From Phoronis australis (lineage: Eukaryota > Animalia > Phoronida), in NCBI GenBank assembly GCA_002633005.1, contig NMRA01000118.1, positions 310,707 to 374,706 on the forward strand: 64,000 nt of DNA, in the 5' to 3' direction. Of this stretch, positions 7,832-63,433 are shown piece after piece. Position 1 is the first letter of the stretch, and every line of letters begins with the position of its first letter. The notes under the pieces were generated by a model. The model saw only the letters and a list, made by a program, of their open reading frames with translations, was not told the DNA's origin and did no database searches. The position numbers and the translations under genes are program-made.

Positions 7832-8088
7832 TCATACATTGTCAGGGGTACCAGTCCCCTGTTTACGCGAGCCATACAACTGTTTGTCAGTAGGTGTCGC
7901 CGCTCTCTCAAAAGCGTTTCCGATCAGTCTGGGTTGGGGCCCGCTTGAATGAGTGGAAGAACTAGCAGAGCCGATCTTGTTCGTTTTGAGCTTCTTCACG
8001 ACGAGCGCTATAATGACTATCAGAATGACGAGTACAACGAATCCACCGACGGCAATACCCACAATAAGTGGCACGCTATTGACCGGAG
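7832..8088 (-). CDS. Exon 47 (terminal): single TM helix and ~54-aa cytoplasmic tail ending -DNV
   Basis: cag acceptor at 8089-8091, phase 1. VPLIVGIAVGGFVVLVILIVIIALVV then KKLK stop-transfer; TGA at 7832-7834. Confidence 0.9.
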
Positions 8089-11000: not shown

Positions 11001-14000
11001 CAACTCTATTAAACTCTTAAAAGTGTTCTCATGAGTTGCTGATAGTTGCAATGTTACCAACTACACAATCCTATCAATATTATTAGACCAAATTTATGAG
11101 AGGAAGGCCTAATTCTTGGGTTTAGCCAGAATGACAGGACAATTAAGGTAGTTTTAAACAAGGACACGATGAGAAATTGCAAAACTTAATATCACCATTC
11201 CTAACTACTTTTGGATTTTGGTTTTGTTTTCAAAAGTGATGCGAGCAAATTTAAAGAAAAATAATTAGTTGGGAGACATGTTGCATTTAACTTCAAAGGA
11301 AAACAAATGGTTATGGATAATATACCTGTCCAATAGAAACCATGCACAACTTGTGAATATTGAATTATGAGAAAAGTCCAATGGCAAGAGTTTAGCATTT
11401 TAAATCTTAAGGGTAAATAAATTCACACAGGGAAACTGTTTTTGTAGGTGATCCACATTTTGAAAAAAAAAACATTTTATGACGACTGGGTAACGGACAT
11501 ATATTCACTATGTATGATACAGAGTTATTTGTCGTATCGTCTATTCATGAGTAAATTGTATAGTGGAAACATACAGTGGTTATTGATGCACCTGCAAGGA
11601 TTATAGATTTTTATTGATCAATTGTTGAGGCAAAAAATCTAACAAAGGCTCAGGTCAAATCAAGGATAAGAAACACTTTGGGCTTGGAGGGAGTGTCTAG
11701 CCCACATAATGGCTAAGAATTTTGTGGGTGGTTATAAATCACAGGACGGTGTTGTTCACACACAATAGGCCTTTTGAAAGTGACATGGAAGTGAAAGAAG
11801 TTTTTCTTTGAGACCCCTGCTTTTAAGCACAGTTGGCCTATGAAAGTAAACACAGCTTAACCATGGGTTTATGGTCTTGGCTGACAAGATGACTGTGTTA
11901 TTAACCCCTATGGGTTTTGAATACACAAGTTTCGAATGTTCCCAGAAGTTGCATGAACCAAATCTTGTCACTGTTGGAAATTAATATTATTGTATCCCTG
12001 AAACAAAATTATTAAATTTTCATGATGATCAATGGGCTGGTCACTCTTTAATGAAGTTCATAATTAGAAGAAAAACAAGGCACAATATACCATGGTGAAC
12101 AAAAGTGCATTGAAAAACATCAAACCCTGTCTTAGCTGAAGAACCTACACTCTAGATGGTCAGATCACTGCACCTAATTCAGCACAATCATTAAAACTAA
12201 AGAAGGCTCATACAGCAATAACTGGCCTTGCCATGAATTATAATTACCAAGTTTGCAGCAACGAACCGAACCACAGCTGCAGTGAAAGAACTCGGACTGT
12301 TCAGTAGGGTAAAATAAGGAGCACTTACTAGCTTGTCATATTAAAAAGTAATATACATTATAAGTAGACAAAAACAACTATTTTAAAATGGCGCTATGTG
12401 AGGTTTTAATAAGCATCAAATACAATATGGCTGCTTACTGTTTGCAGCAGCTGTTGTGGGTGCGTCGGACGCCATGACAACAAAGATTGACAGGTGAGTG
12501 CTCTCGCACATGACCTGATTGCCCACTGTTCCTGCAGTTGAGACACCTTTTGTTGACCATGCTGCGCCAGCGTCGTCCCAATAATGACATGTGTAGACAC
12601 TGTTCACTTTGGCTTTGGTCAATGTCATGTTGATCTTGATGGGAACAGTTAGATTCTGTACCACCAGGTCATCACCTGAAGAAGGTCAAAAGTCAAAAAA
12701 GGTGTTAACCACACATTTTAACTTGGATAACATGGTAAAATTTCCCTATACTTTTGGATAAATATATTAATCATGTGTTCTTTTTCAAAAGATTCATTGA
12801 ATCAAAGCAGGTAGGGTGCCATGAACTGGTATTGTCAGACAAACATTCTTGGACACTACAGTATACAGAAGTTTTCAAACTAAACAGGACAACTTTGAAA
12901 ATAATGAAATTTCGTCAAATCCACTTCGTTTTGCCTAGTAGAAGCAGTTCAATTCTGGTTAAATGTCCCCAAAATCTAGTGTTGATTCAGGTAGTTTGTT
13001 GAAATTGTGACAACTTGTTCTGCAATATCCATACAGTCAGTGGCTAAACATAACATAATATTAAATTTAGCCTGAATTATACAAAAATGCAATTGTAGCA
13101 AAGGTTTGACTAAACTGTCAAATAATTCTGGCAAGATGTTCATCCAGGTTTGGCAGAGTCCAACAGAGTTCCATTGAAGTCTGTCTAGTTTATTTCGAAA
13201 CCTGTAACTGTACATACTTCAAAGCGATCAAGCACACTAATGCCACCTGGTGTGTGAAAATTTCACATATTTTCTAATGCTAATGTTCAACACCAGCAAA
13301 AACAAGTTTTTAATGTTTTGCTCATGATGAAAGCGAATAGTGAAAGCAGATCTTAAAAACACCAGTAAAAAAATTGATTCTTTCAGAAAGAATCCGGTTC
13401 CATGACAATAGATGTGGAAAAGTATGAAAGGAGTGTGACAAGGTGTGCCTGAGGTCACATATGAGGAAGTTTCACAATACATTTTAGTCAACATAGCGAG
13501 TAAACAATGCACACGATGTGTCTTATTAAGATGTACTTCTGAAAAAAACCCTTGTGATTTTGCAATCACATAACCCTGCCCTGTAGCTATAGTTTATATT
13601 TACCCAACGTGAAAATCTTGCATATATCTGTACCAGTAAGTAGCCTATATTCATAATTATATTAATATACTTTTCAAAATAATGGAATTGTGAGTGTGAA
13701 GTGAACTTAGGGGTTTCAGGCAGTATACACTGGACACACTATTACCAATGGTACAGTTTCCGTCCACAAAACAGTGCAAAAATTGAAATCAAATGATGTC
13801 TAAATTGTTCAGGCTACTCTTATCTTAAAGTTGTCTGAATAAAGTGCAGTTAAAAGTCATCGAGGGGAAAGACTTAAGATTTTTTAACAATCAAAGTTGC
13901 CAGACTGCCAACTCTGGACGGTCCATCACGACAATATGTTATGAAAGAATTTGCCCTACATTGAATAAATCAAACACACTAAGTTGAGCATGGCAGAAAG

Positions 14001-17000
14001 AGTTGTGAAATAATGCGATTAGTCATAATCAGGAAATGGCCATAAATAACGGAGTAGAAAGAAATTTCGCCAATAATCATTTAAGGAAGGTTAGATGAAT
14101 GAGTTGTCCTGGTGAAAGACAACAAAAGTTAACCTTCTCAATACAAACAACAAGGACAATTATATGTCAATCAGAAATCTGAATGTTCCGTAAGGTGAAA
14201 TTCAGCTGCTCATGAAGATCAGGGGAAAACAATTTATTTTGAAACATAAAAGCAGAGGAGTTTAGCAGCAGAATCACCCCCTCCTCACCCAGCACTATTG
14301 TAAGGAATTTTGGTTTTAAGGGAATGAATGAGAACCTGGACATCATGCCAAAAAGATTTCTGGGGCTGTGCTCATATTTTAAAAAAGATGTTGGTTTATG
14401 TAATAGAATTTATTAGACTCAGATCAGGTCTCTCTTCAGCATCACACCACTTTACCCATCTCAATGGTAATGAATGTTAGTTTAGGTAAGATTAGAAGGT
14501 TCAGGTCAGGCCTTGACCAGATCAGGCCTCCTGAGCCAAGCACAACCTAATACTCTGCAATAAACACTAAAGAATGACCCAGCCATCATAGCCAGCTCGA
14601 ACAAAAACTAGAGGTCAATAGAAGGTCAAAGACTATAACTGATGACCTTAAGAGGACAGCAGTAACTTAGTCATGAAGTTTTGTGCTGCCACCTATTGTG
14701 ACATACAACTAATTTGCAGGGCTGTTCACCTAGTACCCTTATAGTTGGCAGACTGACAGGTGATCTCTCATTAGGCAACATATTGAAATTCAAAATTTGC
14801 TGTGAACCATAACCAAGTGGGTAAGGTAAGGCTATAGCCTTTAATACTGATCTTCCCCTCAAATCAAATCGGCCCAAGCCATCAATTACGCAGGGTACTA
14901 CTTAGATGTAATCACTCAAATTTATGCTAGAGAAAGACAAAATCTCACTAGTTTTTACACGTGACATAACTGGCATATTCACTTAATATAAATTGTCCAT
15001 CCATGAAGTGATTCTGCAGTTGGACTGGACAGCATTAAAATAAGGCAGAAAACTCACTTATGTTGTATAAACCAATTGCGAGTATTAGTGAATCATTTAG
15101 CGTTTCTCAAACCCTCTTTGGTGTGAGGGAGTTCTCACCTGTACTAGGGTTAGCAAGAGTCACCTCCACCAGGTCCGAAGCTCTGTTGTTCTTGTCACTG
15201 GTAGAACTCGACTTGTCGTCAATATCTGTGTCATAATGGCGGAACTTGCCCACAGCACCAACACAGTTCGAACTGCCGCCACACGCCCAGTTCAAGTACC
15301 TGAAATGATTAAAAAAGACTTCACACAAATTCAGCTTTGCACCGTAACAATCTGACAGTGGTACACATCAAAGGAATATTTTTTAATAAAAATCTATCCA
15401 GTGTACAGTTTACCATAATCCCTTTTTGCTATGAAAAATGAAAATTGCAAAAATTTTGTTGTAAACGCTTTTGAAGGACCTAGTTGTCCACACACCCCCC
15501 CCCCACATTCACATACCACAATTACATCACCAAGGGAATACCAACTGGCAATGAAGTCACAAGGTCACAGTCATTTCTCGCAAAACTCAACAAAACTTTT
15601 GTGTAATGATCTTTCAAAAGCAATGATAACTGCCCTAAAAAGTTACACTAGATCAGAGACAAAGTCAACCACAGCTGACTCCGAATAAAATGTCTTGTGA
15701 AAAAAACCAAAATAAATATGATAGATCAACATGAGCCTTCCCTCATTGATGTCTGGAGGTACTAAATTGACTCGCACTGTGATACATGACCGATTTTGGA
15801 AATATCAGGTTGGAGAAACTTGACATAACATTCCCACTTAGTTTTTCAATCCACTGCAAATACACCTCACCTGTCAGAAACATCCCATTTACTTTTGTAT
15901 TATCAATATTTTGAGAACAAAAACTTACGTGTTTGCCAGTTCACTGCCAAAGTCTACCACAGATGCATTCACAGAGCTTGTTGATGAAAAGATTGACGCC
16001 AGGGTGTTATATGCTGATGTGACGGTAACACGTGGATTTGATTTTGCCTTCACCTCCATCATAGTACCGCCAAACGACAGGTCAAAGGTCATGGCCTTCA
16101 TGACCTTAGACTCCAAGCCGTAGATGACAAACTTGCTATTGGCTGGGTACGTAAGAAGCTCGCTGAGTTTATCAAGTACAATCTGAGCATGCGCCTTGTC
16201 CATGCCATTCTTTTGAGTCAAATACGTGACAAGCGTGTCCAAATAGTTGAGCAGGTTGACCTGGTCTGCAGCGTTTGTTTCCACAATTTTCAGATTCTCC
16301 AGCTGTTCTAGAATCAAGAAGACATCCTCCCGCGTCATTGTGGATGACTTGATGAAGTTGGCGGTGAGGGTGAGAAGGGTGGTGCTGGTCTCGGTGCTGT
16401 TGACAGGTGCTACATCCCGTCGGTGGCGAGAGTGCACTGACCGCCGGCGCCGTGATCCACCGACACTGTCTACAGCAAGATCTATCGCATTCCAGTTGAC
16501 CATGGCAGTGGTAAAGTCACCTGAAAAGGGGATAAATCATTCAATATAAAAGCACAATGATAGTGACTGCTTATTAATAACCAATTCAATTACTTGCTTA
16601 ATTCATATACATGTTATCATAAGTGTGGTCAAACAAACCTATGTGTTACTCCGCAGATATACTTTAACTTAGGAAGTCCAAGACAGGCACACAGTCTTGT
16701 ATTTATCAGATCAATTAAAAGGTTTAGAAGCATTACAGACTATCACAAGCCTCTGAAGCTGTGGTATTTTCCAAATAATTACGTCGTTCATTGTCTTAGA
16801 TAAATCGGAAGACTTCAATGTATACTGCATTATTACTACTAGTACATTTTCTTTTAAACTTACTTGTATGATGATACGTAAGGTACTGATTTATGTAATT
16901 ATAGCTTTTAGCATTTTATTTATTTCAATAGTTTACTTTTACACAACTGCTTGGTACTTTAATTTTATGTAATATTTTCAACTGGGCCCACTTGGAAACC

Positions 17001-18000
17001 ACTGGATTCAGAGAAGTGTTCACCTTGAACTCTTGGCTTTTACTGAATAAAGTTGAAATACATTTAAATAAACGCTGCCGCAGCAGTAAATTGTCCACAG
17101 GAAAGTTGAAGCTTCTTAGGACACAAAAACAATTTTTCGCAGTGCATTATTTCACAAGTGCAGATTTGTATCAGGAGAAATACTTGAAACTGTCAACTTC
17201 GCACGGCATTAGAACAAATCATGCAACGTTTATGTCATAAGGGGTCTAATGTTAGACAAGTCAGAACTATACGCAGGCTTTCAAACAGAAGTGAGGTAGG
17301 TGAGGCCAGCGACACGTTGCACGAAACAGTTCCAATCAGTGACTCAACTAAGTTCCCTAAATCACCTGCGTGACTTTGTTTACTTACAGCTGTTGTCTTC
17401 TTTACGAGCTACTCTTTGACTCAATGCCATTAAGTTGTAATTTATTGAAAATCTGAGTCCCTATTTCAATGAAAATAAATTGGGAGCCAGTCCATAAATG
17501 AGGGAAGTTGTATGAAAGGATCCCATTGATTTGTAATGATAATAAGAATTCAATATAGAGTTCACTGCCGGCGTGTATCAAAGACAAAAATAGACTCACT
17601 TGAAAACAAAAACAGCTGCATTAAGAACAAGATGTGTTTGAAGTTTACAAATGCTGTAAAACTTAAGAAACATTATTGTTAAGTTGCTATTTGGGTCTGT
17701 TGAATGCAACCATGCCCAGGACAATAATCTTACCTATACTGGCTGGTTTGTCTACTTGCTCTTTCTTAGCAACCTCCACTTCGGCGGCACTTATAGACAG
17801 CTTAGGAAGAACTGTTACAGGGGAGCTAACCAGAGTAACACAGACGGCGAACTTATCGCACACCTGGAGGGAAATAAATCTGTAGTTAATGCTTGTTTCA
17901 ACATGTAGCAACCTCATGGTATAGTAATTAGTAAATATCAATCAAAAACGTTTAGATTATCAGACGACAGAAACTCTGTGTGTGTGTGCGTGTGTGTGCA

Positions 18001-18034
<34 letters not shown>

Positions 18035-54000: not shown

Positions 54001-57000
54001 TAGAATCTGCAATTAAGTATTAAAAGTCACATGCAGCAAACTCTTTGACAACCTTTGATTTGGTTCACGTCATGATGTGGAACACTTTGTTTTAGTCACT
54101 TAATACTTACAGAGTGATTATCAATTGCACATCGTTATAGCATGGACAGGATGTAATTCATGATACCTTCATCCTAAAAATTCATTGCTGCTAAATTGAT
54201 TTGGTCTAATTTGAAGATTACGATTCCTGCTCGACCTAATTGACATTGTATAGGACTTATAGACTTGGATAGATGCAATTTCGTTGAGGTCAAAGTTGGC
54301 GTACAGTTTAGATCAGTGCCACATTTTCTCCTCAGACGAGAAACCCCGTTTTGTTTACAATAATATGAACACCACTAGGGGATGCCACAGTTATCTACAA
54401 ATCAACGTCAGCCATAGCCTTCTAGTCAGGAACACATCAGACGTTAAAGTTTCAAAATCATACTTTAAACAGTTGGGCAGATAAACAGGCAGAGGCCAAA
54501 GAACAGAATAAAAAAATAAAAATTTTCACTTGGCTGCTAGGTGGTGCAAAAGTACATCAAATTCAACTTAAAATGAAACAGCATCGACGCCTCTTTACTA
54601 GAAAACTATTTGCCAAATTTCACAAAATCCATAAATGACCTCCGAAGATACAGAGGAAAATGTAAAAAATAAAATTGCCACAAGGGGGCACAGCGGTTGT
54701 CAGATTGATGTGAAACTCGTCATCATCTGTTATCAGCTTATGATAGGAAAACATCTGCCAAATTTCACAAAGATCCTGAAAACAGTTAAGAAGATACAGC
54801 TGTAGATGCAAAAAAACACAAAGGGGTACCATATTAGTCGAATATGCCAAATCTGTCAGAAAACAGGAAGGTGATGTCGTCTCCTTCATACACATCTATT
54901 TGCCAAATTTCAAGAAAACCTATCAAGGGTCTTCCAGACTTGAAAATACTAAAGCAAATGTAAAAAAAAACAAAATTGCCCGGCACTAGGGGCCCTAGCA
55001 GTAGTCCGAAATTTGTTGTTGTTAGTAGTCAAATTCATATGGAACACTTCTGTCAAATCTCATTAGGATGCTGCCAGGCATTTATAAGATATATAATGCA
55101 GCAGCATACGATCTTGAAAACCCAGAGATGGAGGCAATATGCACCCACTTATCAATATGTGGGCACATAATAATCAAGAATAAAAATGTCGAAAACAAAA
55201 CCCCAATTCTGCAAAATTAAGGCCACCCAAAGTATCAGGATAATTTCATAACATACTCTGCACTGAATCCCATGAAATGCATTGCAACTCTTCCAAAGAC
55301 TGTCCCCCAAACTGTGCCGTTCATAAAGCGAGGCATCGGTATTTTTCCACTCTCAAATCCCATGACTGTGATGGACATCTTCTCAACCATTTTCTCCGCC
55401 ATCATCACGGTTTCTTCCAAAGAGCGACCGAACGCTTTGGCATCAAAGTAGTCATAAAACTCCGAAGAAAACTAAAAAGTAAATGGACATCACAATGGCT
55501 TACACAAAATTCTTGAATCATGCCCAAATGCTCTGTAGAACATGTAAAATGATGGCAGATCACCCGACAAAATACAATTTCAAGCACAGCTCCGAGTGGC
55601 ATTGATGATCCACCATTTTTTTATTAAACCTCTCCGTCATTTGGAGCTCTGAGTTGCTTAGTGAAATTGTGGGGCCAAGCTGTGGAAGCCAGACTTGAGC
55701 GAGATGTAAGTCTGTAGGCTATGTCTTTCAATTGCAAGACACTGAGTTTGTTTGAGACTCAAGCCACATTTGCACTGCATTGCATATGTAACCAGACATC
55801 GACTAATCCTGCTATGGCAATGTGACGTGTCTCATCGACAGGCCGACGCCGACGGGTATACTACTGTACTCCTACATGTACTATTCAAGTACTAGTAACA
55901 GGGGCTTTAGACAAAACAGCTAGAAAACGAAGCTCGATATATTTTGAAACACAGATTGCAATGCTTTTTTGTTTGAAAAATATTGAAAGGAAGCGAAGTT
56001 ACGACAGTCACGATCACTAACTGACTCAGTAACACTACACTATGCCGCATTGCCAATGGCATTGGCGTAGTCAGAAGAAACAAGTCGAAAACAAACCTCA
56101 GTTAGTAAATTGAATTATGACGCAAACTCACCATCAACGTTAGTGGTGTGAACATTCCATTCTTGCCCACCAATTCATCCATTAACACGGACTGGTCTAC
56201 TTGCTTGCAAAAGAAGTTTCCCATTGACATATTGAGGACTTGTGGAATGGAACACATGTCGGCGCCAGAGGCCAGCTGCATCAACAGTGGAGCCACCTGG
56301 TGGTAAAACAAAAACTGCGGTTTGCCGCGAAAGGGAGGAACATACCATTAAATAAAACTACTCCGCTTACAAGCTATCAGACAGTTATTTAGTTTCATAC
56401 AACTGTAGTAGCCTTTTTAGTCACAAAGGGTTGCAATACAATTTCTCTGAAAATTCAACACGTCTTATCCTACCTGTTGGAAATCTGTCGCCATGTAAAT
56501 AAACTCCTCTACAATTTCTGGTGCATGGTTCAACAACGACGCGAACTTTTTCATCTCTGAAGTGCCGGCGAACATAGTTTCTTTTGGGAATTCTGTGGAC
56601 ATAATAAGCGCATGTGTGACATGATAACCACGTCCAGGTAATTACAAACGTTCATTGACTGCTTGACCGCGCGTGGCGTGGTCAGTACTTGGCATTGACA
56701 GGTGTCAGTCCGAGGAACTAGGCCCTAGGCAGTCCGCAGACCAGAGCCCTCACTGGCACATTGTGGCGGACAATAAAGTCCATGTTAATCCATGTTAGTT
56801 CACATCGCACCAGGGAATCAACAAAATTCTTTTATACCATTTCAAATTTCTAGGCTCTGACAGGCTCAAGAGGCAGACGATAATAGGCCACTTGGCAAGC
56901 ACGAGCTTGGAACTTCGATTTCAGATAGGCCGGCTATATAGGAAACCGGAGACACGTAGTGAAACCAAAAAAACTTTAATAAGGCTTTGTAGTATTATTG

Positions 57001-60000
57001 GCCGGCCTAACCCGGCCTGGCGAGCACCCGCATGACTACTGATGCGTTGTGTTGTATAATTTCCGAAAGCTGTTGTATCTGAAATCAATACCTTCGACCA
57101 TCACCATCAACCGTTTCAAGAAGACCAATCCTTGCTCTAGTCTGACGAATAGTTGACCGTCATCCTGAGATACTTCCCCCAACACTAACTGGACAGTGGG
57201 CGAGATGATCTTGATGTAGTCTTCAAAACTGAAAACAGTCGTTTTAACTATCTCTAGAATACAATGCGTTGTACATGTAGGTCTCATGCTGTAGCCGAAT
57301 TTGAATTTTGTGTCTTGAGTTTCAATGATTTAGGCTTACATTGCGCGATTGCTGTTTCATACTATCTAAGTTGGACTACCAATTTTTAAAATGTTTCGTT
57401 CATGACTCATCAAATCTCGGCGTTTTAAAATATTTCAGTCACGAAAAGATTACTTACGTCTTGTTTCCAAATGACTCAAAATATCGCCCCAATCGATGAA
57501 ATACTTCGCCCCAAACTTTGTCGTTCACCAGTCGCTTGCGCCAGCGTTCCTCCGGCCACATTTGGTTGTGAATGCGATATTCAAATTTACTCATCTCTTC
57601 TATAACCTGGTAAACGGATTTCACTGTTCCTTGAATGTTGTGTGCCATTGAATCGACATCGAAGTGTTCCAAGTTGCTGTCACTGAACTGCAAAAACCAG
57701 AGCACGCTTATGACAAACTGCGTTACACAAGATAGTGAGTCACGACTGGTGCAGCACCAACGGACAGTAGAACCATCTTAGTTCACGAATCAGGAATGGT
57801 TGGGAAGATCGTCGGTGCACGGTAGTATACTCCTGCTAGTAATGCATTAAGAAAGCACGTCGCAAATCCTGCTTAGCATTAAATTCGGAATTCATAATTA
57901 ATTATTTTAATAATATGAAATATTCACAATGTATTCACATGCCGTATAACACATTTTAAAGAGCAAAAAGGAACGCTTATCACGATGAAATACTTCGCGT
58001 GTGTCCAAACATTTATCCATAGTAATAAGAATACATTTGCGGCACTTTCTCGTGAAAACAAAATTTGCGTCCCAAGCAATTGAGTACGTAACATTGTCAG
58101 TTGGAAATTAAGCTAAAAAAATGTATTAAATTCGGTTCGTTTTAAAAAAATTCGATGCCACGTCAAAAGACTATTATTTGGGCTTAGGTTTCGAATAAAA
58201 GGGTTTGTGTAAAGACTCGTTTCATGAAGTTTTTAACAAAAATGAAGCGAAAATAGTGTCTTTAAGTAAAACAAGAATGAAATACCATGAGCGACTCAAA
58301 CTCATATGCTATAAAAGTACAATGTCAACAGTTCCCGTCAAGAGGATAAAAAGTTCTAAAACACTTTATGTTAAAATGACATATACGTCCAGTCGTGAGA
58401 AAATATCCGTGGCGCGGCTACTGGAACGTACTGAGATTGTCAAGAATTCTCATGAAGTTAATTAAGTGCAAGTTTCATCATTTCCTAAGACGTTCAACTA
58501 TCCCAACAAAACAGTTTATGTTACATGACAATCCCGGGACATCTTGTGTTGTTGTTTACTATGTCACTGGCCAGTGCCCACTCATTGTGAAACCTTATAT
58601 GCCAGACAGCTGATATATATTGTAATTAGAGTTAATAAACTTTGTGTGTCAGTAGAAACTCAACGACTGTGATAGTTGTTATGCTGCTCTTCACCGACTT
58701 GCTGTTGCTACCTCGTTAGCCAACTATCTACCGTTCAACCAAGAACCGGGTAACCCAACTATACTGACTACCACGACCTATCCGTACTCTCCACATTGCT
58801 GATGTCTCCACAGCTTGCGTCTCAAATTGCAAGTTGTCGCTGATGCGCGCTAGTATGAAACCATTAGACGCCATCGGGTTAACAAAGCCATGACAGCATG
58901 CTGTAAGGAACGTTGTGAGATATCGTGCACTGTTCTGAGAAATTTTTGATACGCTCAAAGCTGTGCCAAAACTCACGTGACTCATTAGTAATAGGATACA
59001 CGTAATCATCAACGCATTTTCGGAATAGTGCCGCACCTTGGGAAAAAGTTGGCCATTGACCTTTTTACGGATAAATGTAAACAGTGAAGGCCTAAGTGCA
59101 ATGGAATTGGAAATAAAACACCTTCTTCACAGATTGCCACCAGGGGTCCCTTGCAAGAAAGTGACTCAAGATTTAAAACAGAAATTTGGGCTTACGCTCC
59201 ACACAACTAGTACTGAAGGAGCCGGAAAATCCTAGACCAACCGATAACCATGTACCAAATTTCAGAAGTCAGTTCAAAAGCGACTCAAAGTTGTCTAGGA
59301 ATCTTTCCTTGAAACAATGATGACAGTTCACGGTATTGAATGCAAGCCTGAGTCCTGGACAACGTCAAGTGAAACATTCTTGCAGCTTAGGGCTCAAATT
59401 GTAGGCTTATTTTTTCAGATTATCTCTATTTGTTCTTAGAAATTACTGTACAGTTTGTACCAGACCATTGTCCAGAATCGTGCCAAGTTGTCATGAAAAT
59501 GTAACGATGTGTTTGGAAAACAAGCGTAAGCTGATTATTCGCTTTACTTGTTGGTTACCAATCGGCGACAGTGGCCCCAGGCACAAATCCTTAACGACAG
59601 GCTTTTCATTTGAAACCACAGGTCAAGAATAAACAGTTAAATTTCCCTCTACCCATCCTACTCTCAATCATCATAGAATACACGATGTACTTGGACACGT
59701 GATTTCACAACTAGATACTGGTAACTATTAACTAGTTACATAATATGAGGCTAAGCCTACTGATGTATGACCTTAGTTATCGTCAAGTGTGTGTATTTGA
59801 CCAAATATGCACGAACTGTAAATTTTAACAGAGTAAAAGTATACATTTCCTGAGAGTAGAAGGCTTTTAGAATTTAATTCGTAACTATTATAATATTCGG
59901 TCATTTGACGATGTGGTTTTAGTAAATTTTACCCAAAAAAGAAAGGTACATTCATAGCAAAACAACGGCATCAATAAGATGATTAATATGTCGCTCATGA

Positions 60001-63000
60001 TACCAATGTTTTCGTTTCGTGCAAAGTTTGTAATTTTAATAAAATTCATATTTTTCAATAACCCCTCACGCCCAATCGAACACTTCAACAGTGATTCCTA
60101 ATAGTATTTTACAAAAAGTATTGCATCTGAAAATTTCATATGAATGCCATCAACTATTTGAGAGGTTTGATGTTGCTATGTTAGCCAAGTTCGGACATTT
60201 TTAGTGTTCTAGCTAGTGCTACAGCACTTAATATTAGAATGGGATTCAGTTAATTTATGGGAAAGGAGCCTGTCAGCATTGCAAGTACAAGTTCCCGGGT
60301 CGGCACGCGATGCAGCCTTCTCTTTTGCAATATAAGCTTTTCTCTGCGTCTGACAATCAGCACGTAACGTAGTCGTGACCGCTCTTGACAAACTGTTTGC
60401 ACAATGCATCGTTGGGTATTTGGTTAGAAAATCGCCAGTTGGTAACTGGAACTCAGAGAATAGGGAAAACAAATTCTACGACAGGTAGTAAATTCAAGAA
60501 CAAACTATTTGCTGGCTTCTGTTTTCTCAGTAAAGCAGCGAGCATTTTGATATAAAATTCTTTGTAAACACAGAGACGCTTACATGTATGTCCCATTCAG
60601 TTGAAGCGAATCATGTTTGAACATGTAGTACGGGCGAACAAACGTTCATAATACTGAACATAGAAGCTTTCTATGTAGTCAGCCTTGCGCCATTAGTATC
60701 GGGTATCCTAGTGAGACAGCTTTTGTATCACATCTGAGAGACTTTTTACAGCGCGCAATACTTATGCAATACGATTGGTTTGGAGAGTTGTCTAACCAAT
60801 AGTTATATTTATTTCATTGTGTCTAACTCTTGATGATCAGCATCTGAAGTCTCCACTTGTCTTATGAATGCGCGTAAAGCCTTGTCTAATACTGAGCTGT
60901 TAACAGTAGTTGTTGACTTGGGTTATTGATAACTCCACATTCTATCAAAAAATAATAATAAAAAACGAACTATTGATTTAGACCATTTACCGCTATAGAA
61001 TTGGTCTCTACAAACAACTAACAGATCGTTATTGCTTGAAACCTTGTTTGGCTCACAGTGACAACAGGGAAATTGAAGAGCACGGTCTCCAGCTATAACG
61101 AACTGTCGCTTCCAGCTTTGAAGACCTTCATCTCCATCCAATATGACAAAAGGAACTATTTTGTATTAATTTCATAACGGTAAACGGTCTCAACCGGGTT
61201 CGTTGTTTTTGTGATGGAATATGGGTTTAGGCCGCTTTGGATAAAAATACAAAAAACATCCAATTGAGATATTCACATGACGCCCATTGTATACCCAACT
61301 ATGCCCGCAAGGAAACTTTAGGCGAGAGTACACATGGACGAAACACTTGAGCAACCTAAGAATATAAGTGCAAATACTTGCAGGCGTGCAATACAATGAA
61401 CGTAATGCGAATGTTGCGTGAAGATTTGATTGGACGCACATTTAATCCTTGTTGAGCTATAGTCAGTAAACGACAATCAAACAGGTATCACTATGGCTAC
61501 GAGGAATTACTTAAACACTCTCAATCAATATTGTATTAGTTCCCGGGTTGAGATACACGATAGGTGCTCACGTGCCGAAGAAGGAAGAAGACAGACAAGT
61601 TATACGCCTGCCTAATATTGAACCAGTTACCCGAGTTAGCGGCAACAAACGCGGTTTTCTAGCTGTAATCAGCCTCAAGACGGAATCGAAATCACAACCT
61701 TAGCGGACCTAAACTTTAACTGACAAAGTCGCCAGCCTCTATTTTTGCAGATGGTTCGTAATTTGTGATGAAATCAGAAAGAAACTGACTTCGGTGTTTT
61801 ATGTCTTTGTTCATATCTAAATATAATAGTCCGTAAAGTGCATTTTCGACCGTAAACTGATTATGCCAATATAAAAGTACGTTTTGATTGAATTTGTTTT
61901 CCAACAAACAAAGCGCAGAAATTTGCTCTGAATGAAACAACAGTAATGGGACTTGCGTAACTCCTTATAAAGGTAGGGTTTATGAAAAGAAATTCTTAAC
62001 CACTAAATGGCCTTTTGTGCGTCTCCACGGAAGCCGCTTTATTTATTTACACACACAAACTTTGGCAAAGAAACGTATCAATGCAACAGGAAAGTGAGAA
62101 CATTTTAAATAACGTTGAAAAGGGACTCAAAAGAATTAATGTCTACTGGGTGCTGGTGCACTATAGGCTAACACAACCTCGAAACATACAGGGTGCTTCT
62201 ACGCGAGGCCGATACAGCCAACTTATTTCAGTATGTGCCACCTATGACAGGCCGAAAGAGGCTGAGACCTTTTTTCAAATAAACTCTGCAACAGTTTTTT
62301 TATCGCAACCAATTGTGTATTGCTATTTACTCGCGAACTTGTCACCGAATCAAAGTTCTTTCATATCTCCCTTTGCAAACATGTGCTTGACACATGATGT
62401 ATTTTCTGAATTTTACAGCGTCAGTGCAGTTGCGGTCCCGGCGCGAGATATGTCTGCGGTGCACGGAAAAAAGAAATGAAGCTCGTGAGAAAAGAACTGC
62501 GTTCGTTGGAAAATAACAGTGATATTGGAAACATCTGCGCTGTCAGTGAGGAAGAAATATAATCTAATTCAAGTAAACTTGAAATTAGTCGATCTGACCG
62601 TGGGCCTGAACAGGGCAATAAAAGATAGCATTGCAGAACAATTTTTGTTTGTTGTAGCGACATCGATGTCATTAGCCGAAAGTTTCGCGTCCAGGATAAT
62701 GACAGCGACTACTTGTGATAACTAAATATAATTATTAAGCAACAAAACTTACAATTTTCAACAGAGAGTGCATGATGCGAGACTTTGACCCGCTCATTTC
62801 GGCGAATAACTCCTCCCAGTTGGTCTTGCAGATGATAGATACAATATCTCGAACCTGGATGTTAGAGTTTTCTCCTAAATTGACATATGGTTCAAGTATC
62901 CGAGGGTCTAAACATGCAGCCATCGGGTCATCCTTAAGTTTCAAGTACATCGGGATGACCTGCGAAAAGAGAACGATATAACACCGACTAACTACATGCC

Positions 63001-63433
63001 AGATTCTTATTTAAAACGTTAGTTAATCTTATACCTTACAGATACAGTCCGTCAATGAAATGAAATTACCAATGCTCAATTAAAACGAAAAAAAATATCT
63101 AATAAAGTAGCCAAATTTTCACGATGTGATTAAGTGATTAAGCCAACAAAATACCTTAATGATACACACGTTCAATTTTATTCCTTTTCAGTTATTCATA
63201 CGTCGTATTAATTAATATGTCACATGCTTACTACCCAAACTGCCCACTGAAGATAATTCCACATTTTCTGAAGTCTTGTGAATTCGTCGTTAAACTCACC
63301 TTCTCTGGAGCAGTAACAGTCCTCACGATTACTTCGAAGTGGTCGGGATAATCCTCCAACACTTTCATCAGATTATTCAACTGAACTGTATCTTCTAGGC
63401 CGATAAAGGCGAACATCTTCCCTCTTGCAAAGT
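7832..63433 (-). CDS. Giant multi-exon gene (5' end outside window): single-pass polycystin-1/REJ-family GAIN-GPS cell-surface protein with two unrecognised N-terminal repeat arrays; 47 exons, about 4,617 aa in window
   Basis: 47 exons read by hand, all GT-AG, with compatible phases from 63433 to the stop at 7832-7834 (13,856 nt = 2 + 4,618 codons). REJ-type motif (FDGSVSIDPD...YLWSC), GPS (CHYW...WSTKGV...CESTHLSIF) and one TM helix. Family assignment is from motif recognition, not a database search. Confidence 0.88.
8380..8945. mobile_element. Degenerate copy of Helentron/HINE-like interspersed repeat
   Basis: Shares TACACCCACGAT, ATTTGCCAAATTT...AAAATCCGT...GAAGATACAGAGG and terminal CAATATGC...CGTGGCTGCATAA with the 42495-43950 element. 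Confidence 0.5.
9034..9550. mobile_element. MITE with terminal inverted repeats (PIF/Harbinger-like)
   Basis: TAAAAGCCTTTCATACTAAC ... GTCAGTATGAAAAAGCTTTTA inverted termini in TAA/TTA context; CpG-richer than the surrounding intron. Superfamily is inference. Confidence 0.6.
10603..10716 (-). CDS. Exon 46: Ser/Thr-rich juxtamembrane stalk
   Basis: cag/GT boundaries, phase 1-1, TTVATMTTSSDSSLSAGSTTVTVGHMTNQHASTTQKAS. Not in ORF track. Confidence 0.8.
12439..12675 (-). CDS. Exon 45: GAIN C-terminus with GPS motif (HL|S)
   Basis: GDDLVVQNLTVPIKINM...YTCHYWDDAGAAWSTKGV...MCESTHLSIFVVM; phase 1-1, canonical splice sites. Confidence 0.92.
15139..15299 (-). CDS. Exon 44: GAIN subdomain B region
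   Basis: YLNWACGGSSNCVGAVGKF...ASDLVEVTLANPST; phase 2-1. Confidence 0.85.
15929..16520 (-). CDS. Exon 43: tandem furin-type sites and GAIN helical subdomain
   Basis: GDFTTAMVNW...GSRRRRSVHSRHRRDV...; 592 nt, phase 1-2. Confidence 0.9.
17734..17863 (-). CDS. Exon 42: REJ region
   Basis: VCDKFAVCVTLVSSPVTV...PASI; phase 0-1. Confidence 0.85.
17976..18053. repeat. (TG)n/(CA)n microsatellite, interrupted
   Basis: Seen directly. Confidence 0.95.
18189..18365 (-). CDS. Exon 41: REJ region
   Basis: VTLETKNCFAPEDSLPISYKYGYVD...MTFYVE (REJ-like LPxxYxY); phase 0-0. Frame differs from ORF track. Confidence 0.87.
19226..19374 (-). CDS. Exon 40: REJ region
   Basis: ASLSKGSTYKIDATVTS...GGVTSCVFQASNYTELEQ; phase 1-0. 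Confidence 0.87.
19757..19867 (-). CDS. Exon 39: REJ region
   Basis: GYGYVNLTDSSKLEPPG...ISIIRISA; phase 1-1. Confidence 0.83.
20845..20980 (-). CDS. Exon 38: REJ region
   Basis: VSLGSSAATGTVNVKPGQVVTLQIDI...IVWQSQQLD; phase 0-1. Not in ORF track. Confidence 0.85.
21450..21662 (-). CDS. Exon 37: REJ region
   Basis: FSNGGSC...YQMTLTVTKEKRSATTSVFVAVIAGQPPK; phase 0-0. Confidence 0.9.
21999..22114 (-). CDS. Exon 36: REJ signature
   Basis: GGFVRTVGRGSGEVDFDGSVSIDPDNEAIPMTYLWSCKR matches the REJ consensus GG...LDGSxSxDPD...YxWxC; phase 1-0. Not in ORF track. Confidence 0.92.
22721..22837 (-). CDS. Exon 35: REJ region
   Basis: AGKTIDFHVDVTIPSQPG...STPLVPLVA; phase 1-1. Confidence 0.87.
23001..23149 (-). 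CDS. Exon 34: REJ region
   Basis: FGMMASVELSSCATVAQLNYQWSSS...KNDLP; phase 2-1. Confidence 0.87.
23795..23999 (-). CDS. Exon 33: REJ region
   Basis: LLDQGATYTIRLSVSNFL...KPRVQID; phase 1-2. Confidence 0.88.
24542..24811 (-). CDS. Exon 32: start of REJ/PKD-like Ig domain
   Basis: PKAVIAGPPFISYCDNLYLSGRRSSGGGGRQLNYYWSV; phase 1-1. Confidence 0.9.
25345..25512 (-). CDS. Exon 31: Ig-like domain preceding REJ
   Basis: GSFLRAKFDS...CSEIFDNSIILGEGAEC...IYLGREPTVAV; phase 1-1. Not in ORF track. Confidence 0.85.
25986..26198 (-). CDS. Exon 30: IPT/TIG-like domain 2, C-terminal part
   Basis: TNTRLTCTV...ERPNLVSITFSNT; phase 1-1. Confidence 0.85.
26605..27150. mobile_element. Helentron/HINE-like repeat copy (5' part) with ~140-bp subrepeats
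   Basis: Starts ACAAGAGCAACGCAGAG...ATGCACCCACG; contains TGCCAAATTT and CACTAGGGGGCAC motifs shared with 42495-43950. Confidence 0.55.
27209..27334 (-). CDS. Exon 29: IPT/TIG-like domain 2, N-terminal part
   Basis: VVAVSSINPSQV...INITLTGQQLPTAGCVIT; phase 1-1. Confidence 0.85.
27861..28089 (-). CDS. Exon 28: IPT/TIG-like domain 1
   Basis: VFVLEGAGF...CIF...NQTHLRC...YVVSA; phase 0-1. Confidence 0.87.
28531..28887. mobile_element. MITE with ~18-bp TIR in TTAA-like context (Kolobok-like)
   Basis: AGGTTACGCATACCCCTA (28531-28548) / TAGGGGTATGCGTAGCCT (28871-28888), one mismatch; left flank TTAA, right TTGA. Superfamily is inference. Confidence 0.7.
28914..29016 (-). CDS. Exon 27: last Cys-rich repeat
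   Basis: GDKQYDACNVCGGDGSSCVAVKMVEPRSV; phase 2-0. Confidence 0.9.
29814..29973 (-). CDS. Exon 26: Cys-rich repeats
   Basis: CHRCAGGATG...DGCGVCFGDNSTCADCEGVPYG; phase 1-2. Confidence 0.9.
30444..30614 (-). CDS. Exon 25: Cys-rich repeats
   Basis: GGNTG...DCAGVCNGSFVVDSCGYC...MDCAKTC; phase 1-1. Confidence 0.9.
31246..31482 (-). CDS. Exon 24: Cys-rich repeats
   Basis: DCWGDCGGTAIINKCDECVGGNTG...DCNGDCNG; phase 1-1. Confidence 0.9.
   Translation of the reverse strand, partial: TLVLIREETKCSTAGVTAEVRPSSTNATSVLEETQVVQRTLALTSAASVRALNFTLNHGIVMATATVTPPGTCVPTDA
32433..32648 (-). CDS. Exon 23: Cys-rich repeats
   Basis: DCNGDCFGTAKMDDCGICTKGKT...DCMGVCRG...CGVCVGGT; phase 1-1. Confidence 0.9.
34987..35166. 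repeat. Imperfect inverted repeat (MITE-like) with a CTCF-like motif in each arm
   Basis: TTCACTAGATGGCGCTAAT (~35000-35018) and ATTAGTGCCACCTAGTGAA (~35135-35153) are reverse complements with few mismatches. Confidence 0.55.
35283..35306 (-). CDS. Exon 22: candidate 24-nt microexon (GSATVDFA)
   Basis: ttttcag acceptor and GTATGT donor, phase 1-1, open frame. Not required for frame, so less certain. Confidence 0.6.
35553..41369 (-). CDS. Exon 21: 5,817-nt exon encoding about 10 copies of a ~195-aa Trp-rich module
   Basis: Matches the 1941-aa ORF; tttgcag acceptor at 41370, GTGAG donor at 35552; phase 1-1. Repeated WxCKxGxFxKG...WW...W..FFxxHKL...WxxC motif. Confidence 0.93.
42133..42275 (-). 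CDS. Exon 20 (cassette exon B5)
   Basis: SAMEWVKATIPLLKWPFV...QGALGIYYSTDMVVK; phase 2-1, needed to bridge exon 19 to the giant exon. Confidence 0.8.
42495..43950. mobile_element. Helentron/HINE-like non-autonomous element with ~145-bp subrepeats in a ~430-bp higher-order trimer
   Basis: 5' AACAAGAGCAATGCAGAG; nine CCACTAG-type motifs at 129-159-bp spacing; GACGGACAG motif and terminal hairpin GCGACCAC...GTGGGTGC then ATAATAAAA. Family call is inference from architecture. Confidence 0.65.
44056..44267 (-). CDS. Exon 19 (cassette exon A5)
   Basis: LVPKVGNATLNTSDVV...APSWSKLVF...WEAA; phase 0-2. Confidence 0.82.
44740..44901 (-). CDS. Exon 18 (cassette exon D4, two Cys)
   Basis: PSKLLLMIISGKNPCD...EVCKVNV...RPLINM; 162 nt, phase 0-0. 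Confidence 0.85.
46227..46339 (-). CDS. Exon 17 (cassette exon C4)
   Basis: DLTKAFNLTDRYELDKVV...FGEE; phase 1-0; aligns with C2 (DL-x10-ELxKxV). Confidence 0.75.
46892..47028 (-). CDS. Exon 16 (cassette exon B4)
   Basis: GMKFLKQSPMLL...MTEGLTFLTRLPHHLP; 137 nt, phase 2-1. Confidence 0.85.
47306..47463. repeat. Perfect 53-bp tandem repeat x3 spanning an exon-intron junction
   Basis: TAATCACACAACATCAACAAATACAGTACATTACCCATCAAACAGCATCTGAC at 47306, 47359 and 47412. Confidence 0.95.
47446..47663 (-). CDS. Exon 15 (cassette exon A4)
   Basis: FSPENPKVFDLQKFV...GQMPIPGFANPSRWGAVFARF; 218 nt, phase 0-2. Confidence 0.87.
47970..48285 (-). mobile_element. Decayed LINE reverse-transcriptase fragment
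   Basis: Minus-strand remnants EVVSSYKYL-GVVF and FDVMVYPTFCHGAEIW resemble the non-LTR RT YKYLG and LFxxxVxPxLxYGxExW motifs; frames broken. Confidence 0.6.
49165..49329 (-). CDS. Exon 14 (cassette exon D3, two Cys)
   Basis: IESATREFVGDVPVCNM...RFICYDFN...APLIQM; 165 nt, phase 0-0 (AAG acceptor). Confidence 0.83.
50206..50324 (-). CDS. Exon 13 (cassette exon C3)
   Basis: TIASLSMFNHTVELKRVMKTLDNVPDWFEEIANMVMNPST; 119 nt, phase 1-0. Not in ORF track. Confidence 0.87.
50707..50905. repeat. 15-bp minisatellite (TTTTGAGCGATGGCA)n, about 13 degenerate copies
   Basis: Seen directly; intronic. Confidence 0.9.
50942..51078 (-). CDS. Exon 12 (cassette exon B3)
   Basis: IAETVKDFVPLVQIVLSDLGPE...HHGIIFMNQMLDMAP; 137 nt, phase 2-1. 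Confidence 0.85.
51278..51495 (-). CDS. Exon 11 (cassette exon A3)
   Basis: MSFDYSTAPFNASRM...LPMWMNPAPWMASFGRI; 218 nt, phase 0-2. Confidence 0.87.
52492..52653 (-). CDS. Exon 10 (cassette exon D2, two Cys)
   Basis: LTPVILQVFAGVDICTVPQLQNATLVHFFCKEVSYQTLLIEVAQHEMTGPLVKL; 162 nt, phase 0-0; clearly paralogous to D1; different frame from ORF 52532-52846. Confidence 0.88.
53039..53157 (-). CDS. Exon 9 (cassette exon C2)
   Basis: DLINQLKFDGTVELKKIVQKMDTLPSMLEDLLYRLDSADK; 119 nt, phase 1-0. Confidence 0.87.
53763..53908 (-). CDS. Exon 8 (cassette exon B2)
   Basis: PMHYLNTAMSYLPQLEQLL...DDGVKFGIGVNRFMQ; phase 2-1. Confidence 0.85.
54310..55175. mobile_element. Helentron/HINE-like repeat copy with ~145-bp subrepeats
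   Basis: Repeated TGCCAAATTTCAC...GAAGATACAG...CCACAAGGGGGCAC; ends CAATATGCACCCAC...GTGGGCACATAATAA like 42495-43950. Confidence 0.6.
55257..55471 (-). CDS. Exon 7 (cassette exon A2)
   Basis: FSSEFYDYFDAKAFG...GKIPMPRFMNGTVWGTVFGRV; phase 0-2. Confidence 0.87.
56132..56296 (-). CDS. Exon 6 (cassette exon D1, two Cys)
   Basis: VAPLLMQLASGADMCSIPQVLNMSMGNFFCKQVD...TPLTLM; 165 nt, phase 0-0. Confidence 0.88.
56474..56592 (-). CDS. Exon 5 (cassette exon C1)
   Basis: EFPKETMFAGTSEMKKFASLLNHAPEIVEEFIYMATDFQQ; 119 nt, phase 1-0. Not in ORF track. Confidence 0.87.
57092..57228 (-). CDS. Exon 4 (cassette exon B1)
   Basis: FEDYIKIISPTVQLVLGEV...LEQGLVFLKRLMVMVE; 137 nt, phase 2-1. Confidence 0.87.
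57458..57687 (-). CDS. Exon 3 (cassette exon A1)
   Basis: FSDSNLEHFDVDSMAHNIQGTV...VNDKVWGEVFHRLG; phase 0-2. Confidence 0.87.
62753..62959 (-). CDS. Exon 2 (cassette exon D0, two Cys)
   Basis: VIPMYLKLKDDPMAACLD...IICKTNWEELFAEM...LLKI; 207 nt, phase 0-0. Confidence 0.83.
63300..63433 (-). CDS. Exon 1 in window (cassette exon C0); gene continues beyond the window
   Basis: FARGKMFAFIGLEDTVQLNNLMKVLEDYPDHFEVIVRTVTAPEK aligns with C3 (TVEL..VMK.L...PD.FE); phase 1-0; no signal peptide. Confidence 0.8.

What the first reader, a model, noticed from the sequence alone, without database searches (positions are those of the whole stretch)
7832..63433. A >4,600-aa single-pass polycystin-1/REJ-GAIN receptor carrying about 3,000 aa of two unrecognised repeat arrays
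Seen: 47 phase-compatible exons give helical Met-rich array, Trp-rich array, Cys-rich repeats, IPT-like, REJ, furin sites, GPS, S/T stalk, one TM and a short tail. Known: REJ plus GPS defines polycystin-1/sea-urchin REJ proteins, whose N-termini normally carry LRR, WSC, C-type lectin, PKD or EGF modules. Inference: here the REJ/GAIN base may act as a cleavable display platform for two large payloads I cannot assign to any family, which would make it an undescribed surface, adhesion, gamete-recognition or matrix system.
Basis: partly seen in the sequence, partly recalled or inferred. Interest (0 to 1): 0.88.

Follow-up and report, generated by a model that had tools for sequence, protein, structure and literature searches.

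The report
Giant polycystin-like protein, two orphan arrays
An expressed animal gene is predicted to encode a roughly 4,500-residue surface protein whose membrane-anchored, likely self-cutting base is of the known polycystin/sea-urchin REJ type, but whose outer two-thirds are two old repeat arrays that matched no known family, one with a predicted shape unlike any solved structure searched.

Summary
The gene is real. The 47 minus-strand exons are all AG/GT, phase-compatible and give 4,617 aa without a stop; RNA adds a 9-nt 48th exon. Stranded reads show 8 of 13 testable junctions, including Trp exon to Cys repeats; the helical-array-to-Trp-exon join was not listed, and 52-64 kb and 8-24 kb were not tested. 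REJ and GPS (intact HL|S) pass Pfam cut-offs; there is one TM. Single-pass REJ-GPS proteins are known (SpREJ1/8/9), and this scan noted such proteins on other DNA. New are the payloads: four ~214-aa amphipathic cassettes (four exons each) and eight full plus two partial ~200-aa Trp repeats. The Trp-repeat profile hit 0 of 1.84 billion proteins; its model (pLDDT 87) has no Foldseek match, and its hairpin half matched 0 of 48,161 PDB chains at Z>=2. Correction: a signal-peptide-like exon at 59,009-58,977 suggests the gene starts inside the window (~4,520 aa) and that exons 1-2 end an upstream paralogue (about 60%, untested). Likely mechanism: a membrane-tethered precursor cut by GAIN and furin that displays or sheds a multivalent binding ectodomain; ligands unknown. 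New variant of a known kind.

The parts
62753..63433 (-). Exons 1-2: second half of a helical cassette (type-3 and type-4 exons). Either the receptor's continuation out of the window or the end of an upstream paralogue
   Evidence: Similar to the other cassettes' halves, z 3.7-9.5; exon 2 can splice to an acceptor at 62,605 giving six codons and a stop, AATAAA at 62,047; not RNA-tested
58977..59009 (-). Candidate first coding exon: Met plus hydrophobic stretch ending on a phase-0 donor, in frame with exon 3; would complete a short signal peptide
   Evidence: Donor score 5.3, one of 4 donors >=4 in this 5,065-nt intron; one of 2 such Met-hydrophobic-donor cases in 41.7 kb of introns and the only one in phase with the next exon; inferred, not RNA-tested
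56132..57687 (-). Helical cassette H1 (exons 3-6, 217 aa; phases 0-2, 2-1, 1-0, 0-0; one Cys pair)
52492..55471 (-). Helical cassette H2 (exons 7-10, 214 aa)
49165..51495 (-). Helical cassette H3 (exons 11-14, 213 aa)
   Evidence: all three internal junctions seen in RNA
44740..47663 (-). Helical cassette H4 (exons 15-18, 210 aa)
   Evidence: junctions 17-18 and 18-19 seen in RNA, 14-15, 15-16 and 16-17 not listed
42133..44267 (-). Exons 19-20: divergent linker module with the cassette's exon phases; weak likeness to the helical half of the Trp repeat
   Evidence: z <=1.4 to H cassettes; 8.1 bits on the Trp profile, reached by 1 of 300 shuffles; junctions 19-20 and 20-21 not listed
35553..41369 (-). 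Giant exon 21: eight full and two partial ~200-aa Trp-rich repeats; 4 Cys and 9-15 Trp each, 35 N-glycan sequons; predicted hairpin stack plus helical bundle
   Evidence: covered by RNA in X1 and X2
34768..35306 (-). Two micro-exons (35,306-35,283, 24 nt; 34,776-34,768, 9 nt) linking the Trp array to the Cys repeats
   Evidence: RNA joints with 4+1 and 4+6 reads, 8 letters between; AG/GT at the 9-nt exon and open frame
28914..32648 (-). Exons 23-27: Cys/Asp/Gly-rich DCxGxC...DxCGxC repeats (~280 aa)
   Evidence: exon 24 has relatives in 13 loci of mostly marine bacteria, two of which were scanned and are large secreted-type proteins; junction 23-24 in RNA
23795..29016 (-). Exons 27-33: beta-sandwich region (IPT/Ig-like by eye) leading into REJ
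   Evidence: No Pfam hit per exon; exon 32 has a 43%-identical homologue, P0002, from an unnamed contig, ending at the same exon boundary
17734..23149 (-). Exons 34-42: REJ region
   Evidence: PF02010 profile positions 54-87, 94-130, 136-205 in exons 35, 36, 37
16417..16452 (-). Twin furin-type sites RRRR and RHRR at the REJ/GAIN boundary (a third, RTRR, at 23,043-23,032 lies inside a predicted strand region)
   Evidence: motif only, cleavage untested
12467..16520 (-). Exons 43-45: GAIN-sized segment (321 aa) ending in the GPS motif (12,589-12,467) with H-L|S at 12,496-12,488
   Evidence: PF01825; aligns weakly to adhesion-GPCR GPS regions in the PDB, E 0.03-0.06
8069..12466 (-). 54-aa Ser/Thr-rich stalk (end of exon 45, exon 46, start of exon 47)
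   Evidence: 42% Ser+Thr
7832..8068 (-). Single TM helix (8,068-8,000), 55-aa cytoplasmic tail ending D-N-V, stop codon
   Evidence: Kyte-Doolittle peak 3.41; poly(A)-type signals at 7,323, 6,912, 6,576

Best explanation
The gene is transcribed and spliced and is predicted to encode one single-pass surface glycoprotein of the polycystin-1/REJ kind that likely cuts itself at its GPS site and would be cut again by a furin-type protease, so that it likely works as a membrane-tethered precursor that displays and then sheds a very large, multivalent binding ectodomain. Shown: exon chain, REJ and GPS matches, intact HL|S, one TM, two old repeat arrays, RNA joining Trp array to Cys repeats. From established knowledge: GAIN self-cleavage at HL|S/T leaves the halves bound (PMC3321182, PMC4810088). 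Inferred: the twin basic sites between REJ and GAIN provide the release; the Trp repeats (hairpin stack plus helix bundle, about ten copies) likely bind glycans or similar polymers through aromatic stacking; the amphipathic Met-rich cassettes likely bind lipid or hydrophobic surfaces. Topology and single gene about 85%; GPS cleavage about 75%; shedding about 55%; the ligand classes about 30%.
For: Open 48-exon frame. RNA on the minus strand only, 8 of 13 testable junctions; both arrays and downstream exon bins covered in X1 and X2 and nearly empty in X3. CpG o/e 0.33-0.68 in every 2-kb bin from 6 to 56 kb, no CpG-rich patch and no AATAAA ahead of the giant exon, no signal-peptide exon in introns 19-20. 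REJ and GPS above Pfam cut-offs, H-L-S intact. Twin basic sites in a loop next to GAIN. Trp repeats: synonymous sites saturated (pS 0.69-0.91) while pN is 0.32-0.55 in all 28 pairs, so old and constrained; model pLDDT 86.7. Helical cassettes: alpha hydrophobic moment z 10.5 against 100 shuffles. Shedding of a coral REJ protein into skeletal matrix has been proposed, not shown (PMC4890752).
Against: No cleavage, ligand or localisation was tested. Junctions 19-20 and 20-21 were not listed, so one transcript through both arrays is indirect. GAIN cleavage alone does not release the N-terminal part (PMC3321182). The furin sites follow a short predicted helix that could keep the pieces together (inference). 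The GPS lacks two of the four Cys seen in the adhesion-GPCR alignment. Read depth is low, about 1-2 RPKM by my count, which does not suggest a bulk matrix protein in these samples. The binding roles rest on composition and a weak analogy.
Confidence: 0.55

Rival explanations
1. A retained receptor or adhesion molecule: cut at the GPS but not shed, it holds the arrays on the cell surface for cell, gamete or substrate recognition, as SpREJ1 does with lectin domains, and couples through its short tail or a partner channel.
For: SpREJ1 is single-pass, heavily glycosylated and binds egg jelly (PMC1934368). GAIN halves stay bound (PMC3321182). Low expression in two of three raw-read runs. The tail ends in a hydrophobic residue, a possible PDZ-type end (motif recalled, not tested).
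Against: Twin furin-type sites sit right above GAIN. A 54-aa S/T stalk separates GPS from the TM, and there is no multi-pass part for a tethered peptide to act on.
Confidence: 0.25
2. The arrays are a passive glycocalyx or coat scaffold: long, stable, glycosylated spacers with no specific ligand; the Trp residues only hold the hairpins together.
For: 70 sequons, 35 in the Trp array. Repeats are only 24-53% identical; invariant columns are mostly Trp and Cys, as expected of a structural core.
Against: Two different, compact, constrained folds are more than a spacer needs; 9-15 Trp per repeat exceeds the 7 invariant ones; strong amphipathicity of the distal cassettes.
Confidence: 0.12
3. Two genes: a secreted helical-cassette protein ending near exon 20, and a separate Trp-array/REJ/GPS receptor.
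For: Junctions 19-20 and 20-21 not listed; depth over exon 20 is low. Exon 20 read past its donor stops after 9 codons. Exons 1-2 may already be such a separate paralogue. Intron 20 holds an unexplained 4-Cys open stretch near 41,800-41,670.
Against: Acceptor scores 8.8 and 9.0 for exons 20 and 21, among the highest of 46; no AATAAA/ATTAAA in intron 20; no CpG-rich patch; no signal-peptide exon with a phase-1 donor; same strand, similar depth and same sample pattern on both sides. The listing needed 3 reads at 99% identity, so a missing joint is not evidence of absence.
Confidence: 0.08

Closest known systems
Sea-urchin single-pass REJ proteins SpREJ1, SpREJ8, SpREJ9 (PMC1934368)
   Same: REJ, GPS, one predicted TM, no channel part; large multi-exon genes (SpREJ8 3,274 aa, SpREJ9 2,965 aa); N-termini vary between paralogues.
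   Different: They carry C-type lectin/EGF domains (SpREJ1) or Ser-rich regions (SpREJ9); none is described with helical cassettes, Trp repeats or DCxGxC repeats. This protein is about 4,500 aa. No sequence comparison with them could be run.
Polycystin-1 (PKD1) and coral REJ skeletal-matrix protein (PMC4810088, PMC4890752)
   Same: REJ followed by a GAIN-sized segment and an HL|S/T site; very large ectodomain; shedding proposed for the coral protein.
   Different: No 11-TM/PLAT/channel part, and no LRR, WSC, lectin or PKD Pfam hit in any exon scanned; a mucin-like stalk lies between GPS and TM.
Adhesion GPCRs (GAIN-7TM)
   Same: GPS region aligns weakly to ADGRF1, G3 and E5 (E 0.03-0.06).
   Different: One TM instead of seven; REJ present.
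Choline- and glycan-binding beta-hairpin solenoids (LytA, CbpF, CbpJ type)
   Same: Stacks of aromatic beta-hairpins; these entries recur among the weak Foldseek rows.
   Different: E 1.1-6, TM-score about 0.15, rmsd 8-13 A; not found by VIA-align. An analogy only.
DCxGxC repeats of secreted proteins of marine bacteria
   Same: Exon 24 matches 13 loci at 43-70% identity over the best segment.
   Different: No named family; those loci hold neither of the two arrays.

Membership tests
PKD1/REJ family (PMC1934368) | REJ domain (PF02010) | tested here: met
   Exon 37 alone 31.5 bits, cut-off 25; exons 35 and 36 colinear at E 0.12 and 1.2e-4
PKD1/REJ family (PMC1934368) | Full-length REJ with six conserved Cys | tested here: inconclusive
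   Profile positions 206-452 not matched by single exons; six Cys in three close pairs lie at aa 3,857-4,129 but were not aligned to a family member
PKD1/REJ family | GPS motif with H-L|S/T before the first TM | tested here: met
   PF01825 32.2 bits, cut-off 22.5; H-L-S; a 54-aa stalk lies between it and the TM
GAIN-domain proteins (PMC3321182) | ~320-aa fold with helical subdomain A and beta subdomain B | tested here: inconclusive
   321 aa from exon 43 to the GPS end; exon 43 had no PDB sequence hit; the spliced domain was not folded
GAIN-domain proteins | Autoproteolysis at the GPS | not testable with these tools
   Needs protein work
Canonical polycystin-1 / PKD1L / PKDREJ | 11 TM, PLAT domain, channel-like C-terminal part | tested here: not met
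   One TM, stop 55 aa later, poly(A)-type signals downstream
Single-pass SpREJ1/8/9 type | REJ + GPS + one TM | tested here: met
   PMC1934368
Single-pass SpREJ1 type | N-terminal C-type lectin and EGF domains | tested here: not met
   No such Pfam hit in the giant exon or in the exons scanned one by one; domains split across exons could be missed
Adhesion GPCR | 7TM after GAIN | tested here: not met
   One hydrophobic peak of TM strength
Retroviral Env-like protein (atlas lead for the Trp repeat) | Sequence or fold likeness to Env surface subunit | tested here: inconclusive
   Atlas score 0.85, 158 shared features, recognition 997, all below the tool's marks; no Pfam hit; no viral-structure match at E<=0.001
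Choline/cell-wall-binding repeat solenoid | Solenoid of ~20-aa hairpin repeats | tested here: inconclusive
   Only weak Foldseek rows, TM about 0.15; no Pfam hit
   Domains are split by introns; single exons gave no hit

The most novel reading that the evidence does not exclude
The Trp repeat is a new protein fold and a new kind of binding module, and the REJ-GAIN base serves as a release device for a two-payload secreted product (aromatic polymer-binding array plus lipid- or surface-binding helical array): an undescribed adhesive, coat or recognition system of an invertebrate lineage, with the helical cassette also present in a neighbouring stand-alone paralogue.
Probability: 0.3. Interest if true: 0.78.

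Novelty: new variant of a known kind. Interest (0 to 1): 0.55.

Why it matters
It supplies two old, constrained extracellular repeat modules with no detectable relatives, one with a confident model that matches no solved structure tested; each repeat is a 200-aa unit that can be expressed and solved on its own. It also offers a clean case for asking what a GAIN domain does without a multi-pass signalling part: hold, release or sense force. The base itself is not new, and relatives in animal genomes that my searches did not cover may exist.

Tried and rejected
No whole genome is held. The run search listed no indexed RNA holder; three raw-read runs and one contig set came by species label. The first read-laying at 90% likeness filled its joint table with repeat reads. 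Homologue searches for the Trp array found nothing: word-index search 0 of 353 and 0 of 1,988 candidates (proteins above 5,000 aa not searched), profile search 0 of 1.84 billion (no animal positive control run), PDB sequences best E 0.31, PHROGs 0 of 8 repeats, NCBIfam none, metagenome and viral contigs 0 of 121 and 0 of 123 pattern matches. Fold searches: no Foldseek match at E<=0.001; VIA-align best Z 5.8, a generic helix bundle; hairpin half 0 of 48,161 chains at Z>=2; absence of a match does not prove a new fold. Helical exons: no informative Pfam, PDB or atlas hit; they were never searched as a whole cassette or against the 1.84-billion library. A likeness to ABCA-transporter ectodomain helices was recalled from memory and found no support. 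A shared origin of the two arrays was not supported by profile comparison (probability 1.6% and 0.4%, within shuffles). Retroviral-env origin: atlas lead below all marks. Self-association of the Trp repeat: the complex job gave no verdict. Exon 32 found no locus in metagenome contigs (0 of 597). Assembly artefact or recent expansion rejected: repeats 21-53% identical with saturated synonymous sites. Literature searches listed no paper on this architecture; subscription papers and supplements were not seen.

Full report
Gene model. A splice-aware search and manual completion gave 47 minus-strand exons from 63,433 to 7,832, all with AG/GT ends and compatible phases, reading 4,617 aa without a stop. 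No genome was available. The organism is unknown; intron structure, CpG depletion and a LINE fragment point to an invertebrate animal (inference).

RNA. Three stranded raw-read runs and one contig set came by species label. Laid at 99% identity on 32,350-52,300, exon reads in X1 and X2 have the first mate on +, i.e. RNA from the minus strand in the usual library type. Of 12 predicted joints inside the stretch, 7 were listed: 11-12 (5 reads), 12-13 (2+6), 13-14 (4+2), 17-18 (5), 18-19 (4+3), 21-22 (4+1), 22-23 (4+6); loose ends of 7 reads give 23-24. The 22-23 joint carries extra letters that map to a 9-nt AG/GT exon at 34,776-34,768; with it the model has 48 exons and 4,620 aa. Not listed: 14-15, 15-16, 16-17, 19-20, 20-21; the tool needs 3 reads from 2 starts and depth is about 3. 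The Trp exon is therefore joined to the Cys repeats, while its join to the helical array is indirect. Downstream exon bins in 24.5-32 kb are covered on the same strand in X1 and X2, but their joints were crowded out by repeat reads. X3 is nearly empty over both arrays. Of nine variant positions in the reads, five are synonymous.

One unit or two. CpG o/e, a proxy for germline methylation (PMC8857923, passages), is 0.33-0.68 in every 2-kb bin from 6 to 56 kb and 0.79-1.05 at 0-6 kb and 56-64 kb. There is no CpG-rich patch or poly(A) signal before the giant exon, its acceptor scores 9.0, and introns 19-20 hold no signal-peptide exon with a phase-1 donor. I put a split at 20-21 at about 8%.

The 5' end. 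'Intron 2' is the longest (5,065 nt against at most 2,634) and is not CpG-depleted. It holds a Met plus hydrophobic stretch ending on a phase-0 donor at 58,977, in frame with exon 3; only 2 such configurations occur in 41.7 kb of introns and only this one fits the next exon's phase. Exon 2 can instead splice to 62,605, stop after six codons, and use AATAAA at 62,047. This suggests a complete receptor of about 4,520 aa and an upstream paralogue ending near 62 kb. Against: weak start context, an out-of-frame ATG just upstream, a short hydrophobic core, CpG-rich DNA also reaching 5 kb into the next gene, and exons 1-2 being no more distant from the cassettes than some cassettes are from each other. 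About 60%, untested.

Helical array. Four cassettes of 210-217 aa, each four exons with phases 0-2, 2-1, 1-0, 0-0 and one Cys pair; 21-25% identical, z 15-37 against 200 shuffles for all 6 pairs. Met 7.1%; alpha hydrophobic moment z 10.5. Exons 19-20 share the phases but not the sequence. Single exons gave no informative hit in Pfam, PDB sequences or the atlas. The spliced cassette was neither folded nor searched as a whole, so its orphan status is less well tested than the Trp repeat's.

Trp array. Eight full and two partial repeats of about 200 aa in one exon; 4 Cys and 7 Trp invariant. Synonymous sites are saturated in all 28 pairs while pN is 0.32-0.55. AlphaFold2 with the eight repeats as alignment gave pLDDT 86.7, pTM 0.76: five or so hairpins with short helices, then a three-helix bundle with two more hairpins; the first 109 residues alone gave 84.8. 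No Foldseek match at E<=0.001 in PDB or viral models; VIA-align gave best Z 5.8 on the helix bundle only and 0 of 48,161 chains at Z>=2 for the hairpin half. The profile hit 0 of 1.84 billion representatives. Limits: the model is unverified, AlphaFold DB was not available, no animal control was run in that library, and the exon-32 search returned 1 of 238 candidates and skipped proteins above 2,000 aa, so coverage of large animal proteins is uncertain. Choline-binding solenoids recur among weak rows and are only an analogy.

Base. Cys repeats resemble repeats in 13 bacterial loci, mostly marine (13 of 74 pattern matches); two scanned proteins are large secreted-type proteins. REJ and GPS pass Pfam cut-offs. 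The GPS keeps H-L-S, the residues needed for self-cleavage (PMC3321182, PMC4810088, passages), and keeps two of the four Cys of the adhesion-GPCR pattern; I recall the same reduction in human PKD1, unchecked here. Twin basic sites lie 20-35 aa into exon 43. One TM and a 55-aa tail follow a 54-aa S/T stalk. P0002, from an unnamed contig, matches exon 32 at 43% and ends at the same boundary, so the base has relatives in other organisms; whether they carry the arrays is unknown.

Mechanism. The likely course is ER entry, GAIN self-cleavage with the halves still bound, heavy N-glycosylation (70 sequons), then a convertase cut above GAIN that frees or primes release of an ectodomain of about 4,100 aa. 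Repeated aromatic hairpin units would give avidity for a polymer, and amphipathic cassettes at the tip would bind lipid or hydrophobic surfaces. Only the anatomy is shown; cleavage is inferred from motifs and ligand classes from composition.

Comparison. SpREJ1, 8 and 9 have one predicted TM and varied N-termini (PMC1934368, parts 1-2 of 4 of the text read); REJ paralogues in a second urchin vary in expression (PMC13672419, passages); coral and brown-algal REJ-GPS proteins are multi-pass (PMC4890752, PMC4700764, passages); PMC12716839 (passages) did not mention REJ. Earlier notes of this scan report single-pass REJ-GAIN proteins in Naegleria and a sea urchin with other payloads; none matched these arrays by sequence or words. 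Searches listed no paper on this architecture; supplements were not read. It is a member of the REJ/PKD1-like family by REJ and GPS, not a canonical polycystin-1, and works like a single-pass REJ display protein.

Verdict. Observation largely right, with a corrected exon count and a doubtful 5' end. New variant of a known kind; interest 0.55, carried by two orphan modules and a candidate new fold.

Noticed in passing
window 62,047-63,433 (-): Exons 1-2 with a possible terminal exon at 62,605 and AATAAA at 62,047 may be the end of an upstream gene made of the same helical cassette, without the receptor base.
   Followed up: partly
window 41,670-41,800 (-): Open stretch in intron 20 with four Cys and an LPW..F motif like the Trp repeat's, behind a plausible acceptor but with no phase-compatible donor; possible extra or decayed exon. 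No Pfam hit.
   Followed up: partly
window 42,520-43,950, 54,590-54,970 and near 26,600-26,950 (+): Interspersed satellite-like repeat with ~145-bp units and a ~430-bp higher-order period; many diverged copies are abundant in all RNA runs.
   Followed up: partly
window about 4,935-4,993 (-): Likely first coding exon of the next gene on the same strand: Met, basic residue, long hydrophobic stretch, phase-1 donor, in CpG-rich DNA.
   Followed up: no
window 2,700-3,640 (+): Broken C-terminal fragment of a LINE reverse transcriptase; zf-RVT 32.2 bits.
   Followed up: partly
window 47,306-47,463 and 50,706-50,899: A perfect 53-bp triple tandem starting over the end of exon 15 (it copies the donor region, so the exon's true end is uncertain) and a 15-bp minisatellite next to exon 12.
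   Followed up: no
window 12,248-12,300 (-): Short AG/GT-flanked stretch in intron 45, seen by eye, that could be an optional stalk exon.
   Followed up: no
L006:1491-6815 and L011:794-2926: Large secreted-type bacterial proteins (Desulfonema, Marinimicrobia) carry 14 and 9 copies of the same Cys motifs; no Pfam family was found for the repeat in the window's exons.
   Followed up: partly
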